In this document: in pieces, positions 48,041-55,990 of the stretch
Position numbering within the stretch: the first letter of the stretch is position 1
Layout: the number at the start of each line of letters is the position of its first letter
NCBI GenBank assembly: GCA_016840085.1
Contig: JAEOTA010000064.1
Location: 1 to 64,000, forward strand
Source of the DNA: Promethearchaeota archaeon
GTDB lineage: Archaea; Asgardarchaeota; Lokiarchaeia; Sigyniarchaeales; SOKP01
Direction of reading: 5' to 3'
Length of the DNA stretch: 64,000 bases
Made by a program: the position numbers and the translations under genes
Notes under the pieces: model-generated
What the model saw: the letters and a program-made list of their open reading frames with translations, nothing else
Told to the model about the DNA's origin: nothing
The model's database searches: none

Positions 48041-49627
48041 TTAATTATGGTCGATTTGTTCCCCATATCCTATTAATCGATAACGTCTATTAATAATTCG
48101 AGAAATTGCATAAATGAAATTTTCTGGTGGACAAATAGGAGGTGTTAGTTTTATAATGACACTATTTTTTAATATTTTTGTAACAGTTCCCCCTGTTTTT
48201 TCAGTTCCCACAACTAATAATAATTTCTCTCCATGTTTGAGAGGTTGAACTTTCATTTGAACTTCAGATCCAATAACTCTATCTAAAAGATTTACATTTA
48301 GCTCAACTTCACTAAGAATATTAGGTAAAGTTCCTGTTCCTCCAACTAAATGGCCAATTAGATGATCTCCTTTTGTTAACGCGGGATCTAGTTTTGTTCC
48401 TAAGCCTATAAGACCGCCAGGTTTAGCATTTTCTAAAATGTTATTTCCTTGGCTAATACTTACGACTGTAGATTTTAATGGTACATATTGATCTTTAACA
48501 CGTATACCAGGGCTAATTTCGATTTGATCTCCAACTAAAATTTTTCCTTTTAAAACAGAACCTCCTATTACACCACCTTTTAAATCTTTAATTTCTTTAC
48601 CTGGACGATTGATATCAAAGGATCTTGCTATTAAAAATTGAAATAATTCGTCCTCTTTAAACTTTGGAGAAGGAATAACCTCTTCAAAAGCTCTCACAAC
48701 AAGATGCATATTCGCTCCAAAGACTGCAGATACGGGTATAACTGGAGCATTTTCAGCAACAGTTCCTTTTATAAATTCTTTAATTTGTTGAAAATTCTCT
48801 AAGGCTTGTTCTCGAGAAACAGCATCAATTTTATTTTGTAATATGATAACATTTTTTATCCCAGCAATATTTAAAGCTGCTAAATGTTCCCGTGTTTGGG
48901 GTTGGGGGCATTGTTCATCAGCTGCAATTAAGAGGCACGCCCCGTTCATTAATGACGCACCACTTAACATAGTTGCCATTAAAATCTCATGACCAGGCGC
49001 ATCAACAAAGGAGATATTTCTTCTAAACTCTAAATTTCCTTGACATTTCGGGCATGAAAATCGAAGTTTTCCTTTCTCTCTATTTTTCTCTGCAAGATGG
49101 GCTGTTGTATATTCATCACATTCAGGACAATAAAGAATTGAGGCATTAGAATATCCTAACTTTATTGAAATACCTCTTTCTTGCTCTTCAGAGTGTCGAT
49201 CAGTCCAATCTCCTGTTAACGCCTTTACTAGAGTAGTCTTCCCATGGTCTACATGCCCAACAAGTCCTATATTGCATTCTGCTTGTTTTTTTATTAATTC
49301 TTTTATTTTTGTTCCTTTTTCCTTAGAAATTAATTTTGGTTTAGGCTTTGGTTTAGATTTTGGTTTAGATTTTGATGGAATTTTTTCATCAGTTATTTCT
49401 TTAATTACTGTTGAAGATTTTGTTTTTGCATCTATTTCTTCAATTACTTTTTTAGCGTTTGTAATTATTTTTTCCGCAGTTGCTTTTCCCACGCCTTTTA
49501 TTTGTAATTTTATTAAATCTTCAGGTTTTACAGTAGCTAGTTTTTCAATTGAACCAATTCCTGCCGCTTTCATTTTTTCTGCGATAGATTTACCAATTCC
49601 CGAAATATCTTCTAATTCATAGGACAT
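48041..49627 (-). CDS. eif2g: Translation initiation factor aIF-2 gamma with N-terminal HhH extension
   Basis: GHVDHGKT, RGISIKLGY, DAPGHE, QPQTREH, NKID, RSFDINRPG, RYRLIGYG. Confidence 0.95.
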   Translation of the reverse strand: MSYELEDISGIGKSIAEKMKAAGIGSIEKLATVKPEDLIKLQIKGVGKATAEKIITNAKKVIEEIDAKTKSSTVIKEITDEKIPSKSKPKSKPKPKPKLISKEKGTKIKELIKKQAECNIGLVGHVDHGKTTLVKALTGDWTDRHSEEQERGISIKLGYSNASILYCPECDEYTTAHLAEKNREKGKLRFSCPKCQGNLEFRRNISFVDAPGHEILMATMLSGASLMNGACLLIAADEQCPQPQTREHLAALNIAGIKNVIILQNKIDAVSREQALENFQQIKEFIKGTVAENAPVIPVSAVFGANMHLVVRAFEEVIPSPKFKEDELFQFLIARSFDINRPGKEIKDLKGGVIGGSVLKGKILVGDQIEISPGIRVKDQYVPLKSTVVSISQGNNILENAKPGGLIGLGTKLDPALTKGDHLIGHLVGGTGTLPNILSEVELNVNLLDRVIGSEVQMKVQPLKHGEKLLLVVGTEKTGGTVTKILKNSVIIKLTPPICPPENFIYAISRIINRRYRLIGYGEQIDHN

Positions 49628-52193: not shown

Positions 52194-52751
52194 TTAATGT
52201 TCTTCATTTTGGATTTTCTCCTTTTTCATTTTTATTAGATATAAAATTGAACTTACAGTCCCAAAAATACCTTGGATAATTAAGGCTAAGGATATCAATA
52301 AAACAGCAAGAAGATCCTTGAAAATAAATAAAAATATAATAATAAAGATACCTGCTACAGTAAATCTCAAAATAGAGGAAAGTTCACTGAATACAATTTT
52401 CCAGGTTTTAGATTTTTTTACTCGTGCTTCTAAGTCTCGATGATATTGATCTTCTCCAATTTCTTTTATATACCAACTCCCTTCTATGTTATTTGCAAAA
52501 ATTAAAATACTCCACCATAAAATAAAGAAACTAAAATAAAAGTCTAATGAACCTAATACTATAATAGGTATTTGCATTAAGATCATTCCTTTCCAGCCAA
52601 CACGTTTAGCTATTTTATTTGTTTCTAATTTCAATTCTTTAGAAACATATCGTGTGCTAAGTATATCAAGCGATCTCCCAATGAATGTTAAAAATGCGTT
52701 TATCAAATATTGATACCATTGTACATTACGTATAATTAATTGAAAAATCAT
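52194..52751 (-). CDS. Membrane protein of unknown function
   Basis: About 5 hydrophobic segments. Confidence 0.7.
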   Translation of the reverse strand: MIFQLIIRNVQWYQYLINAFLTFIGRSLDILSTRYVSKELKLETNKIAKRVGWKGMILMQIPIIVLGSLDFYFSFFILWWSILIFANNIEGSWYIKEIGEDQYHRDLEARVKKSKTWKIVFSELSSILRFTVAGIFIIIFLFIFKDLLAVLLISLALIIQGIFGTVSSILYLIKMKKEKIQNEEH

Positions 52752-52910
52752 ATTCTTCAGCTCATCTTACGGTATTCCTTTTAAATTTAATCTTTTTAAT
52801 GAAAAACTTTTTTTATTAGGCTTTATTATTTCTAACTACACTTTACCAAATAAGTAAAGATTTACATTGTAAATAATTATACTTATTAAATGGTATTAAA
52901 TCGTGGTTTT

Positions 52911-53091
52911 ATAACCACATAAATATATAGCATCTTGCTAAGCGCCGGACGTTAAACTTATAAGCGTTGCAGGATAGTACTGCAGTTGCGATCTGTGGGA
53001 AACCTCAAACTGTGAGTTCGCTCACGGTCATGGCTTTAAAGGATAATACCCGGTCCCATCCGAACCCGGAAACGCTTATTTATGTGGTTAT
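52911..53091 (+). other. Precursor processing stem with BHB-like motif flanking the permuted 5S rRNA
   Basis: Outer stem 52911-52924/53078-53091 (14 bp perfect); AAGCG/CGCTT; central CCGG/CCGG; bulges AC(G) 52949-51 and AAA 53070-72. Confidence 0.75.
52951..53071 (+). rRNA. rrf: 5S rRNA, circularly permuted (3' half 52951-53016, UUCG linker, 5' half 53021-53071)
   Basis: Loop C UCCCAUCCGAAC inside ACCCGG/CCGGAA; loop E AGUAC/GGGAA; GCGA loop; helix I ACTGTGAG/CTCACGGT. Confidence 0.88.
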
Positions 53092-53188
53092 TAATGACAT
53101 TAAACCTTTTATTTCTCTAAAAATAAGTTTTTATACGATTAATTATAAGTTTAATTAATATTTCATAATAAATTACCTAAAAACACGT

Positions 53189-53731
53189 ATGCCAAAAAAG
53201 TATATCGTTCTTTTTAAAACTATTGGTAGAAAGTGGTTTCTATTTCTTATTATTATAATAATTATCGTGGCAATAATTAACCCCGTAGCAGCAATTTGGA
53301 TGACCGGCATCACTTTAGTATTATTCCTTTTATCGTATGTTCCAAGAATATTTTTTAAAAATAGATTGCATAAATTCATGAATAAATTTTTTAAAATAGA
53401 AGATGAATTAATAGCCAGAAAACTAAAGAAATCTTTGAAAATAATTCAGGAAGATATGTTTGATTTATCCCAAAAACAAGATAAAAAGAAATGGTTGATT
53501 GTTTTTCTAAATAAACAATATATTTTTTATCATCAAGAAACTATTCAGGCATTTAAGGATCTTTACAAAAAAGGTTATAGTGAGAAAGAAATCCTTGATA
53601 ATTTAACTAATTACAAAATTGGTATTAGAGCTGAGGTTAAAGCAATAAAAGATACTTTAATTAAACTTAAAAGAATAAGTGAAAGGGAAATTTCTGTAAA
53701 AGAACATTACGAAAAGCAAAGATTTAATTAA
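53189..53731 (+). CDS. Hypothetical protein with N-terminal TM helices
   Basis: Two hydrophobic segments followed by a basic soluble domain. Confidence 0.7.
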   Translation: MPKKYIVLFKTIGRKWFLFLIIIIIIVAIINPVAAIWMTGITLVLFLLSYVPRIFFKNRLHKFMNKFFKIEDELIARKLKKSLKIIQEDMFDLSQKQDKKKWLIVFLNKQYIFYHQETIQAFKDLYKKGYSEKEILDNLTNYKIGIRAEVKAIKDTLIKLKRISEREISVKEHYEKQRFN

Positions 53732-54385: not shown

Positions 54386-54907
54386 ATGCCCAAAAAGTTT
54401 ATCCTAAAGATTCTTACTGCCGGGGAGGGAGGTGTAGGAAAAACCACACTCCTTCATAGGTACGTGGAAGGTAAATTCTCAGCGGAGACGAAAATGACAA
54501 TAGGTGTTGAGTTTTTCCTGAAAGAGGTTGAGATTGATCAAAAACATTGCACTCTGCAGCTTTGGGACTTCGGGGGACAAGAAAGGTTTCGATTTTTGCT
54601 TGAAAGTTATGTATTAGGGGCAAAAGGAGCGCTGTTAATGTTCGATCTCACAAGAGTATCAAGCCTTGAAAATTTGCATCAATGGATAAAGATTGTTCGA
54701 AAGGGAAATCCGAATCTTCCTGTTCTTTTTTTAGGGACCAAATTAGATTTAGAAGATGAGATACAAGTTGATGATGATTATGCAAGATCATTTCTAAATG
54801 AATTTAACTTAATTGATTTTCTTAAGATTTCTTCAAAAACGGGCGAGAATGTTCATGAAGCTTTTAGTATATTAACACAAAAAATATTAGAGCGACAAAC
54901 TTATTGA
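54386..54907 (+). CDS. Rab-like small GTPase
   Basis: GEGGVGKT, TIGVEF, WDFGGQERFR, TKLD, SSK. Confidence 0.93.
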   Translation: MPKKFILKILTAGEGGVGKTTLLHRYVEGKFSAETKMTIGVEFFLKEVEIDQKHCTLQLWDFGGQERFRFLLESYVLGAKGALLMFDLTRVSSLENLHQWIKIVRKGNPNLPVLFLGTKLDLEDEIQVDDDYARSFLNEFNLIDFLKISSKTGENVHEAFSILTQKILERQTY

Positions 54908-55347
54908 ACTCCAAACTTGCATTAGTAGTTGTTGATTCTAATTTTGTACTTCTTCCTTTTCAGTTTAAAGTGGATTATTTAAATGAAATAAGGCACATGG
55001 TTGAAGGCAAACTTAAGTTTATAATATATCAACAGGTTTTGAATGAGCTTGAATCTAAGAAAAAAAGAGAATCGCAAGCAACGAAATTTATTAGACTTCT
55101 TGAGTCAGGCTTATCTTACCTAGACAAACATAAAGCGGATTATGATATTGATTTTATAAATGATATTAAGAACATTGAAGAAACAACAGATGATTTTTTA
55201 TTGAGAAAAATTATTTGTTTGAAAAAGGAAGGAAATAATGTATTTTTTGCAACTAACGATTCTAATTTACGTAAAAAAGCAAAAAAACAACACATAAATA
55301 CAATTTTCCTTAGGCAAAAAAAATATTTATCTATAGAAAGAATTTAA
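54904..55347 (+). CDS. PIN-domain nuclease, Fcf1/Utp24-like
   Basis: VVDSNF, VLNEL, TDD, ATNDSNLR; overlaps the GTPase stop codon. Confidence 0.82.
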   Translation: MNSKLALVVVDSNFVLLPFQFKVDYLNEIRHMVEGKLKFIIYQQVLNELESKKKRESQATKFIRLLESGLSYLDKHKADYDIDFINDIKNIEETTDDFLLRKIICLKKEGNNVFFATNDSNLRKKAKKQHINTIFLRQKKYLSIERI

Positions 55348-55474
55348 TTTAAATAATTTGCTATATCCAAACAAAAATTTTAAAATTTTATAAAAAGATG
55401 TAGATAATTAATAAGTATTGAATTCAACATTATAAAAAATTAAATCTTATTGTCTATTTTAATGCAATAACAGA

Positions 55475-55990
55475 ATGTCTAAGCCAAAAATTTTAAAAAT
55501 AATTACAGCAGGAGAGGGTGGAGTGGGTAAAACAACACTCCTTTATCGATATGTGGAGGGAAGATTTTTAGCAGATACACGCATGACCCTAGGCGTAGAG
55601 TTTTTCATCAAAGAAGTTGATGTTGGAGGGAAAAAGATAAATTTACAGGTGTGGGACTTTGGAGGTCAGGAACATTTTAGACCATTATTAAAAAATTATG
55701 CATTGGGAGCAAAAGGTGCACTATTACTTTTTGATCTTACCAGACCATCAAGCTTAGAGAAAATTAACCAATGGGTTAATATTTGCAGAGAAGATAACCC
55801 AGATATACCTATTATTTTTTTGGGAACGAAATTGGATTTGATTGATTTAATATCTGTTGATGATGGTTATGCTCTGAGATTTAAAGTAGAATATAATTTT
55901 TTTGAATATTTAAAAATCTCCTCGAAAACTGGTGAAAATGTGAATTTAGCATTTGAGTTGTTAGCAGAAGAAATTGTAAGGAAGTTATAA
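55475..55990 (+). CDS. Rab-like small GTPase (paralog)
   Basis: GEGGVGKT, TLGVEF, WDFGGQEHFR, TKLD, SSK. Confidence 0.93.
   Translation: MSKPKILKIITAGEGGVGKTTLLYRYVEGRFLADTRMTLGVEFFIKEVDVGGKKINLQVWDFGGQEHFRPLLKNYALGAKGALLLFDLTRPSSLEKINQWVNICREDNPDIPIIFLGTKLDLIDLISVDDGYALRFKVEYNFFEYLKISSKTGENVNLAFELLAEEIVRKL

What the first reader, a model, noticed from the sequence alone, without database searches (positions are those of the whole stretch)
52911..53091. Circularly permuted 5S rRNA gene with a BHB-like splice junction that would yield a circular 5S rRNA
Seen in sequence: the conserved 5' half of 5S rRNA (CTCACGGTCATGGC...ACCCGGTCCCATCCGAACCCGGAA, 53021-53071) lies downstream of the 3' half (GTTAAAC...AAGC...AGTACTGCAG-TTGCGAT-CTGTGGGAAA...ACTGTGAG, 52951-53016). 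The normal 3' and 5' ends are joined by TTCG (53017-20), capping an 8-bp helix I. The flanks pair into AAGCG/CGCTT plus a central 4-bp CCGG/CCGG helix, with a bulge 3' of it on each strand (AC[G] 52949-51; AAA 53070-72), inside a 14-bp perfect outer stem. Established knowledge: archaeal splicing endonuclease cuts BHB bulges after the second nucleotide and RtcB ligates the ends; permuted tRNA and SRP RNA genes restored this way are known in some archaea. Inference: cutting at 52950^52951 and 53071^53072 and ligating gives a 121-nt circle whose junction reads CCGAACCCGGAA|GUUAA, which matches the canonical 5S sequence and restores the AA bulge of helix III. This implies a 5S rRNA that only becomes functional after splicing and that standard annotation could miss or call partial. 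I do not know of a described BHB-spliced permuted 5S gene, but cannot check the literature.
Basis: partly seen in the sequence, partly recalled or inferred. Interest (0 to 1): 0.97.

Follow-up and report, generated by a model that had tools for sequence, protein, structure and literature searches.

The report
Permuted 5S rRNA gene, circular product
This Loki-type Asgard archaeon encodes its only detectable 5S ribosomal RNA with the two halves in swapped order between tRNA-intron-type cut signals; RNA data from close relatives show the transcript cut and rejoined into a ring of about 120 bases, which explains why 5S genes have looked missing in many Asgard genomes.

Summary
Confirmed. Window 52951-53071 is a circularly permuted 5S rRNA gene and the only 5S found in this 98.8%-complete Lokiarchaeia genome. 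Rejoining at the splicing-endonuclease positions (52950^52951, 53071^53072) gives a full-length 5S match (55.1 bits versus 26.9 + 15.0 in swapped order), the best of 49 junctions tested. DNA matches occur in 34 of 36 same-genus genomes (30 loci examined, all permuted), and the swapped layout in 19 Asgard families; 7 families have a conventional gene. The junction sits at four different registers, and a bulge-helix motif marks it in 68 of 84 loci (1.2 expected). Many relatives also carry ~30-nt BHB introns inside the 5S. Metatranscriptome contigs from relatives contain the predicted joint (53071 to 52951), wrap more than one turn of the circle and never cover the flanks. The motif here is relaxed (hBH/BHL), not a full BHB. 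Not shown: EndA cleavage, junction RNA from this exact genome, or that ribosomes hold the closed ring. The mechanism matches the Thermoproteus SRP RNA; I found no paper describing it for 5S. This scan noted the same thing before on other DNA (108 notes, at least 83 genomes).

The parts
52871..52893 (+). Putative archaeal promoter (BRE-like A-rich stretch, TATA box 52883-52890); predicts a start site near 52911-52916
   Evidence: Motif conserved at the same distance in same-genus loci; function inferred
52911..52925 (+). 5' arm of the outer leader/trailer stem
   Evidence: Perfect complement of 53077-53091; core conserved in family loci
52928..52940 (+). Small leader hairpin
   Evidence: Predicted fold; similar hairpin in many family loci; role unknown
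52940..52944 (+). Outer helix h, 5' strand (discarded)
   Evidence: Pairs with 53073-77; first three pairs kept in 193 of 204 cells versus 140 in shuffles
52945..52948 (+). Central 4-bp helix H, leader strand (discarded)
   Evidence: 4/4 pairs in 79 of 83 loci; a direct repeat of the partner in only 28
52949..52951 (+). 5' bulge/loop; predicted cut 52950^52951
   Evidence: Second base varies (A/C/T) among type A loci, as expected for a discarded base; RNA joint lands on 52951
52951..53016 (+). 3' half of 5S rRNA (end of helix III, helix II 3' strand, helices V and IV, helix I 3' strand)
   Evidence: Profile model 50-118
53017..53020 (+). UUCG tetraloop joining the normal 3' and 5' ends
   Evidence: TTCG is the commonest loop, 41 of 83 loci, plus other tetraloops; spanned by RNA contigs
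53021..53071 (+). 5' half of 5S rRNA (helix I 5' strand to loop C, helix III 3' strand and AA bulge)
   Evidence: RF00001 model 26-52; profile model 4-55
53066..53072 (+). Central helix H, retained strand, and 3-nt bulge; predicted cut 53071^53072
   Evidence: RNA coverage ends at 53071 with joints going back
53073..53091 (+). Trailer: outer helix h 3' strand and 3' arm of the outer stem (discarded)
   Evidence: no RNA depth beyond the 53066-79 bin
53105..53118 (+). T-rich tract, possible archaeal terminator
   Evidence: Sequence only; inferred, not tested

Best explanation
A stand-alone 5S rRNA gene is transcribed from its own promoter as leader - 3' half - tetraloop - 5' half - trailer (order shown; promoter inferred). 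Leader and trailer pair, so the leader's CCGG displaces the helix III partner and forms a relaxed bulge-helix motif (inferred from covariation). The tRNA splicing endonuclease EndA cuts after the second base of each bulge and RtcB joins 53071 to 52951 (enzymes present; their action inferred). The product is a 121-nt closed ring that folds as a normal 5S with helix III and its AA bulge restored and helix I capped (ring shown in relatives' RNA; fold computed). Relatives use the same chemistry to remove ~30-nt introns inside the 5S. The ring is most likely the form that binds uL18/uL5 and enters the ribosome (inferred, about 0.7).
For: Best junction of 49 is the EndA-rule junction. Only 5S-like locus in the genome. 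Motif at the homology-defined junction in 68 of 84 distinct loci versus 1.2 expected; 6 of the 16 misses are loop-C-intron loci whose true ends do form the motif. Four registers (-15, -1, 0, +1 relative to this gene) each restore the canonical sequence. Leader strand covaries with its partner: 268 of 272 central pairs versus 249 in within-register shuffles. RNA: joint 53071 to 52951 'goes back 121' in a 138-nt contig that also spans the tetraloop; many contigs of 150-152 nt, the size of a 120-122-nt cycle plus 30; zero depth on flanks in 4 studies. One 145-nt RNA contig matches genomic loci L080/L088/L093 (22 of 22 junction letters; 14 predicted and 14 observed differences to the window) with the joint made and their 31-nt insert absent. 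EndA, RtcB and uL18 genes present. Asgard EndA is reported as the (alpha-beta)2 type with the loop tied to relaxed-motif cleavage (PMC5829648). Circular fold gives the 5S three-way junction.
Against: No RNA junction from this exact genome: the only RNA piece identical to it (52972-53046) does not reach the joint. The predicted lowest-energy precursor is not the splice-competent fold (2.7 kcal/mol higher here; median 1.6 over 87 loci). The inner helix of a full BHB is missing. Contigs cannot show ends or abundance, and rolling-circle reverse transcription favours circles over linear 120-nt RNA (my knowledge), so ring dominance is not shown. Kin are not independent, so the counts overstate significance.
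Confidence: 0.88

Rival explanations
1. The ring is only an intermediate: after ligation a nuclease opens the helix I loop and the ribosome holds a conventional linear 5S, as for permuted tRNAs. This differs from the best explanation only in the last step.
For: Permuted tRNAs mature through a circle that is re-opened (Soma 2007, cited in PMC4267664). Some relatives carry an insert at the helix I loop (L080, L088, L093), so that region is processed. Contigs cannot show ends.
Against: The cap is mostly a stable tetraloop (TTCG, TACG and related) on a stem that is extended in some families. RNA contigs span the loop and close the cycle even at depth 2-7, while no flank-bearing precursor is seen. 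Circular 23S in ribosomes (PMC12918454) and circular SRP RNA (PMC4731332) are precedents for working rings.
Confidence: 0.25
2. No ligation is needed: the transcript is trimmed to a linear permuted 5S in which the leader CCGG serves as the 3' strand of helix III, like brown-algal mitochondrial 5S.
For: This is the predicted minimum-energy fold of the precursor here (pair probability 0.95). Linear permuted 5S exists in organelles (PMC4267664).
Against: RNA contigs show the joint and lack the leader. The leader strand follows the complement of the retained strand, not a repeat of it, in 55 of 83 loci. In type B genes the break falls just before loop C. The base that would form the AA bulge varies in the leader but is invariant in the retained copy (42 of 42).
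Confidence: 0.04
3. Assembly artefact or a dead 5S relic, with the real gene unassembled elsewhere.
For: The assembly is a MAG with 16S and 23S broken at contig ends, so rRNA genes can be missing.
Against: Same layout in the 30 same-genus loci examined, in single-contig genomes and in 19 families; helices covary; expressed in 4 studies.
Confidence: 0.01

Closest known systems
Permuted, circularised SRP RNA of Thermoproteus tenax (Plagens et al. 2015, PMC4731332)
   Same: Halves of a universal RNA in swapped order; leader and trailer form a BHB-type motif; EndA cut and RtcB ligation restore a functional element; gene missed by annotation.
   Different: Here the substrate is a ribosomal RNA; it occurs in 19 Asgard families, not two species; four junction registers; extra internal introns; no in vitro cleavage yet.
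Permuted mitochondrial 5S rRNA of brown algae (Valach et al. 2014, PMC4267664)
   Same: 5S with helix I closed by a hairpin and new ends elsewhere; missed by RF00001.
   Different: Organelle form stays linear and permuted, with ends at the three-way junction and no splicing; here the break is in or next to helix III and is re-joined.
Permuted tRNA genes (Cyanidioschyzon merolae; Soma et al. 2007, as cited in PMC4267664)
   Same: Swapped halves joined through a splice motif and a circular RNA.
   Different: The tRNA circle is re-opened to normal ends; here the old ends are joined by a short stable tetraloop and re-opening is not seen.
Circular or permuted archaeal 23S rRNA (PMC7758197, PMC12918454)
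   Same: EndA/RtcB circularisation of an rRNA at a BHB; circular form can be in ribosomes.
   Different: Those genes are colinear and the BHB lies outside the mature ends; PMC12918454 states that 5S is not processed this way.
Circular 5S species in Halobacterium and Sulfolobus (PMC12558985)
   Same: Covalently closed 5S-derived RNA.
   Different: They come from conventional genes, have variable ends and are proposed degradation products; here circularisation is needed to build helix III.

Membership tests
5S rRNA (RF00001) | Full-length match to the family model above cut-off as encoded | tested here: not met
   22.1 bits, model 26-52, cut-off 38; expected for a permuted gene
5S rRNA (RF00001) | All conserved 5S elements present in canonical order after rejoining | tested here: met
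   55.1 bits over model 6-118 of a profile from 11 conventional sister-family genes; RF00001 itself could not be run on a rearranged sequence
5S rRNA (RF00001) | Three-way junction fold with helices I-V and the helix III AA bulge | tested here: met
   Circular minimum-energy fold
5S rRNA (RF00001) | Component of the large ribosomal subunit | not testable with these tools
   uL18 gene present; no ribosome data
Canonical BHB (hBHBh') EndA substrate | 4-bp central helix with a 3-nt bulge and an outer helix | tested here: met
Canonical BHB (hBHBh') EndA substrate | Second 3-nt bulge closed by an inner helix | tested here: not met
   After the 3-nt 5' bulge T52952 faces C53065; the motif is the relaxed hBH/BHL type
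Permuted ncRNA gene matured by tRNA splicing (Thermoproteus SRP type) | Halves in swapped order, no colinear copy | tested here: met
Permuted ncRNA gene matured by tRNA splicing (Thermoproteus SRP type) | RNA with the ends ligated at the predicted site | tested here: met
   Contigs from relatives in four metatranscriptomes; not from this genome itself
Permuted ncRNA gene matured by tRNA splicing (Thermoproteus SRP type) | Cleavage by the host EndA | not testable with these tools
   EndA and RtcB genes present; the beta subunit and specific loop were not checked in this genome
Permuted ncRNA gene matured by tRNA splicing (Thermoproteus SRP type) | The circle is the functional form | tested here: inconclusive
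   Closed cycles span the tetraloop, but contigs cannot show ends or proportions
Organelle-type linear permuted 5S | Mature RNA keeps free permuted ends, no ligation | tested here: not met
   Junction-spanning contigs

The most novel reading that the evidence does not exclude
Most Asgard families sampled build their ribosomes with a covalently closed 5S rRNA made by tRNA-type splicing from a permuted gene, sometimes with extra BHB introns; the permuted state may be old in Asgard archaea, with several returns to a colinear gene.
Probability: 0.6. Interest if true: 0.9.

Novelty: new variant of a known kind. Interest (0 to 1): 0.82.

Why it matters
5S rRNA is universal and in prokaryotes is thought to come from colinear genes with free ends. 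A spliced, closed 5S makes the tRNA splicing enzymes essential for building the large subunit. It resolves a published gap: 5S genes could not be predicted in complete Heimdallarchaeum genomes (PMC8813620). It gives a simple annotation fix (search with a doubled or permuted model), adds BHB introns in 5S, for which I found no report, and bears on the state of 5S in the archaeal ancestor of eukaryotes. It is directly testable with existing metatranscriptomes and enrichment cultures.

Tried and rejected
Rfam at gathering threshold: nothing in the window. Sigma-70 promoter scan: uninformative for an archaeon. A first exact-motif extraction missed type B loci; fixed with fuzzy anchors. For helix IV and helix I inserts the profile score does not single out the splice register; those calls rest on the BHB geometry and on matching intron-free relatives. 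Two full-length RF00001 hits inside the family (G094, G110) were set aside as probable contamination: they follow a bacterial-looking 23S end and resemble no family member (my reading). The RpoB tree (24 rows, 4 dropped for lacking my anchor motif, 2 genomes without a match, unrooted, one marker) needs 5 changes of state (4 forced by supported branches) and the label is not significantly clustered, so it shows repeated switching but not the ancestral state. Literature: 'permuted 5S' gave one paper (organelles), 'circular 5S' + archaea none, five further searches no Asgard report; subscription papers are not covered. ARAGORN finds few tRNAs in this genome, not followed up.

Full report
Setting. 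The window is contig C60 of a 4.68-Mb, 29.5% G+C, 98.8%-complete assembly. Records that match a permuted-order pattern are titled mostly Promethearchaeia/Promethearchaeota MAGs, so the host is a Loki-type Asgard archaeon. The element lies alone between two diverging protein genes (52194-52751 minus, 53189-53731 plus), away from 16S and 23S.

RF00001 sees only loop C (model 26-52, 22.1 bits). A profile HMM built from 11 conventional 5S genes of the sister family f2 finds the 3' half first (model 50-118, 26.9 bits) and the 5' half second (model 4-55, 15.0 bits). The rearranged sequence scores 55.1 bits over model 6-118, and the junction set by the 'cut after the second bulge base' rule is the best of 49 shifts. 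Folded as a circle, 52951-53071 gives the 5S three-way junction with helix III and its AA bulge. No other 5S-like locus was found with RF00001, a broader Asgard profile or a permuted profile. One refinement: in the 3-nt register the 5' bulge has no inner helix, so this is a relaxed hBH/BHL motif. Asgard EndAs are reported as the (alpha-beta)2 type with the loop linked to cleavage of such motifs (PMC5829648). EndA, RtcB and uL18 genes are in the genome.

Conservation. The DNA matches 34 of 36 same-genus genomes, and all 30 loci fetched are permuted. In a class-wide RF00001 search only 13 of 151 genomes pass the cut-off, 11 of them in family f2; the weak hits elsewhere are permuted genes. Across the phylum the swapped order was seen in 19 families (f1, f4-f8, f10, f11, f13, f14, f18, f20, f22-f28) and a conventional gene in 7 (f2, f12, f15, f17, f21, f30, f31). 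Family f2 holds single-contig genomes of 4.4 and 6.0 Mb, sizes that fit the two cultured Lokiarchaeia (my inference); conventional genes there would explain why the layout went unnoticed.

The splice rule is the strongest comparative evidence. The junction is not fixed. Type A (this gene) breaks after the helix III AA bulge; type B, in the same genus, breaks 15 nt earlier, just before loop C; types C and D break one base later or earlier. I located each junction by homology alone and then asked whether a 4-bp helix, bulge and outer helix sat there: yes in 68 of 84 distinct loci, against 1.2 expected. Six misses are loci with a loop C intron, whose true ends do form the motif; most others have one mismatch or an interrupted outer helix. 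The discarded leader strand covaries with its retained partner (17 strand combinations; 4/4 pairs in 79 of 83; a direct repeat in only 28). Central pairs number 268 of 272 against a shuffle mean of 249, outer pairs 193 of 204 against 140. Kin are not independent, but four registers are separate evolutionary events.

Introns. Eighteen of the analysed loci carry 29-31-nt inserts at five positions (loop C, three in or near helix IV, one at the helix I loop); one locus has two. For loop C the best-scoring of about 1,800 excisions is the BHB one; for two helix IV sites a full BHB excision recreates the sequence of intron-free relatives. This gene has none.

RNA. Contigs from four metatranscriptomes (four studies; relatives mostly 85-99% alike) cover only 52945-53071, with no depth on leader or trailer. 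They show the joint 53071 to 52951 ('goes back 121') in a 138-nt contig that also crosses the tetraloop, further joints with the helix II start between, and many contigs of 150-152 nt, the length of a closed 120-122-nt cycle plus 30. A contig longer than one turn that crosses the tetraloop and both main junction sites cannot be read from a linear gene of any of these layouts. One 145-nt contig fits loci L080/L088/L093 exactly at the 22 junction letters and in the number of differences to the window (14), joined and without their 31-nt insert; an intron-free strain with the same 5S is not excluded. Limits: no junction from this very genome, no DNA run laid beside, and contigs show neither ends nor proportions.

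Mechanism. Shown: gene order, conservation, motif covariation, ligated RNA in relatives. Inferred: promoter at 52871-93, EndA/RtcB as the enzymes, the ring as the ribosomal form. Against: the computed precursor prefers a fold in which the leader CCGG takes the place of the helix III 3' strand; the splice-competent fold is 2.7 kcal/mol higher, so refolding or enzyme capture is needed. The main open rival is re-opening at helix I (0.25). Stable tetraloop caps and loop-spanning cycles at low depth argue against it but do not exclude it.

Evolution. An unrooted RpoB tree needs five changes between permuted and conventional. A shared break at helix III in distant families suggests an old permutation with returns to colinearity, but this is not shown.

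Comparison. It works like the permuted, circularised SRP RNA of Thermoproteus (PMC4731332). It differs from brown-algal mitochondrial 5S, which stays linear (PMC4267664), and from circular 5S species of Halobacterium and Sulfolobus, which come from normal genes with variable ends (PMC12558985). A 2026 paper states that 5S is not processed by circularisation (PMC12918454), and a study of complete Heimdallarchaeum genomes could not predict any 5S gene (PMC8813620). I found no paper on permuted archaeal 5S genes in the library searched. The scan has noted the same thing in at least 83 other genomes; those notes are not counted as evidence.

Verdict. Real, conserved and expressed; a new variant of a known maturation route, applied to a universal ribosomal RNA across much of Asgard. 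Interest 0.82.

Noticed in passing
L006, L007, L009, L013, L018, L031 (loop C); L008, L011, L031, L053, L055, L086, L087, L090, L092, L010 (helix IV); L080, L088, L093 (helix I loop): 29-31-nt BHB-type introns inside permuted 5S genes at five positions; I found no report of BHB introns in archaeal 5S.
   Followed up: yes
L146-L149 (G231, G179) and L159 (G166): Two permuted 5S copies per genome in family f10; several leaders carry a hairpin insert that interrupts the outer helix and may be an intron in the leader.
   Followed up: no
L163 (G268:C2:29256-29407): A conventional-order 5S with an insert of about 30 nt after helix II starts; possible intron or expansion segment.
   Followed up: no
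window 48041-49627 (minus): aIF2-gamma with a long N-terminal extension that looks like a helix-hairpin-helix domain plus a Lys/Pro linker; its GKT motif is uninterrupted here, whereas scan notes report a BHB intron at that site in relatives.
   Followed up: partly
G000 tRNA genes (e.g. C81:6390-6502, C81:35714-35817, C81:62610-62715): ARAGORN finds only 13 tRNAs, several doubtful; T-arm motif hits show more genes with A+T-rich inserts in the D-arm region, suggesting many non-canonical tRNA introns.
   Followed up: no
L164 (G000:C88:61763-61874): SRP RNA scores only 35.6 bits (cut-off 96.5), model 128-244; by eye colinear but divergent or expanded.
   Followed up: partly
L035 (G044:C1:1399892-1400758): Three identical conventional 5S genes in tandem at about 374-bp spacing.
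   Followed up: no
L032 (G094), L043 (G110): Full-length conventional 5S next to a bacterial-looking 23S end inside Loki MAGs; probably contaminating contigs.
   Followed up: partly
L105, L110: Records titled Thorarchaeota and Hodarchaeota by their depositors have the contig lengths of genomes that the search places in this window's family (G107, G083).
   Followed up: no
window 54386-55990: Two Rab/Ras-like small GTPase genes flanking a PIN-domain-like gene; judged from the translations only.
   Followed up: no
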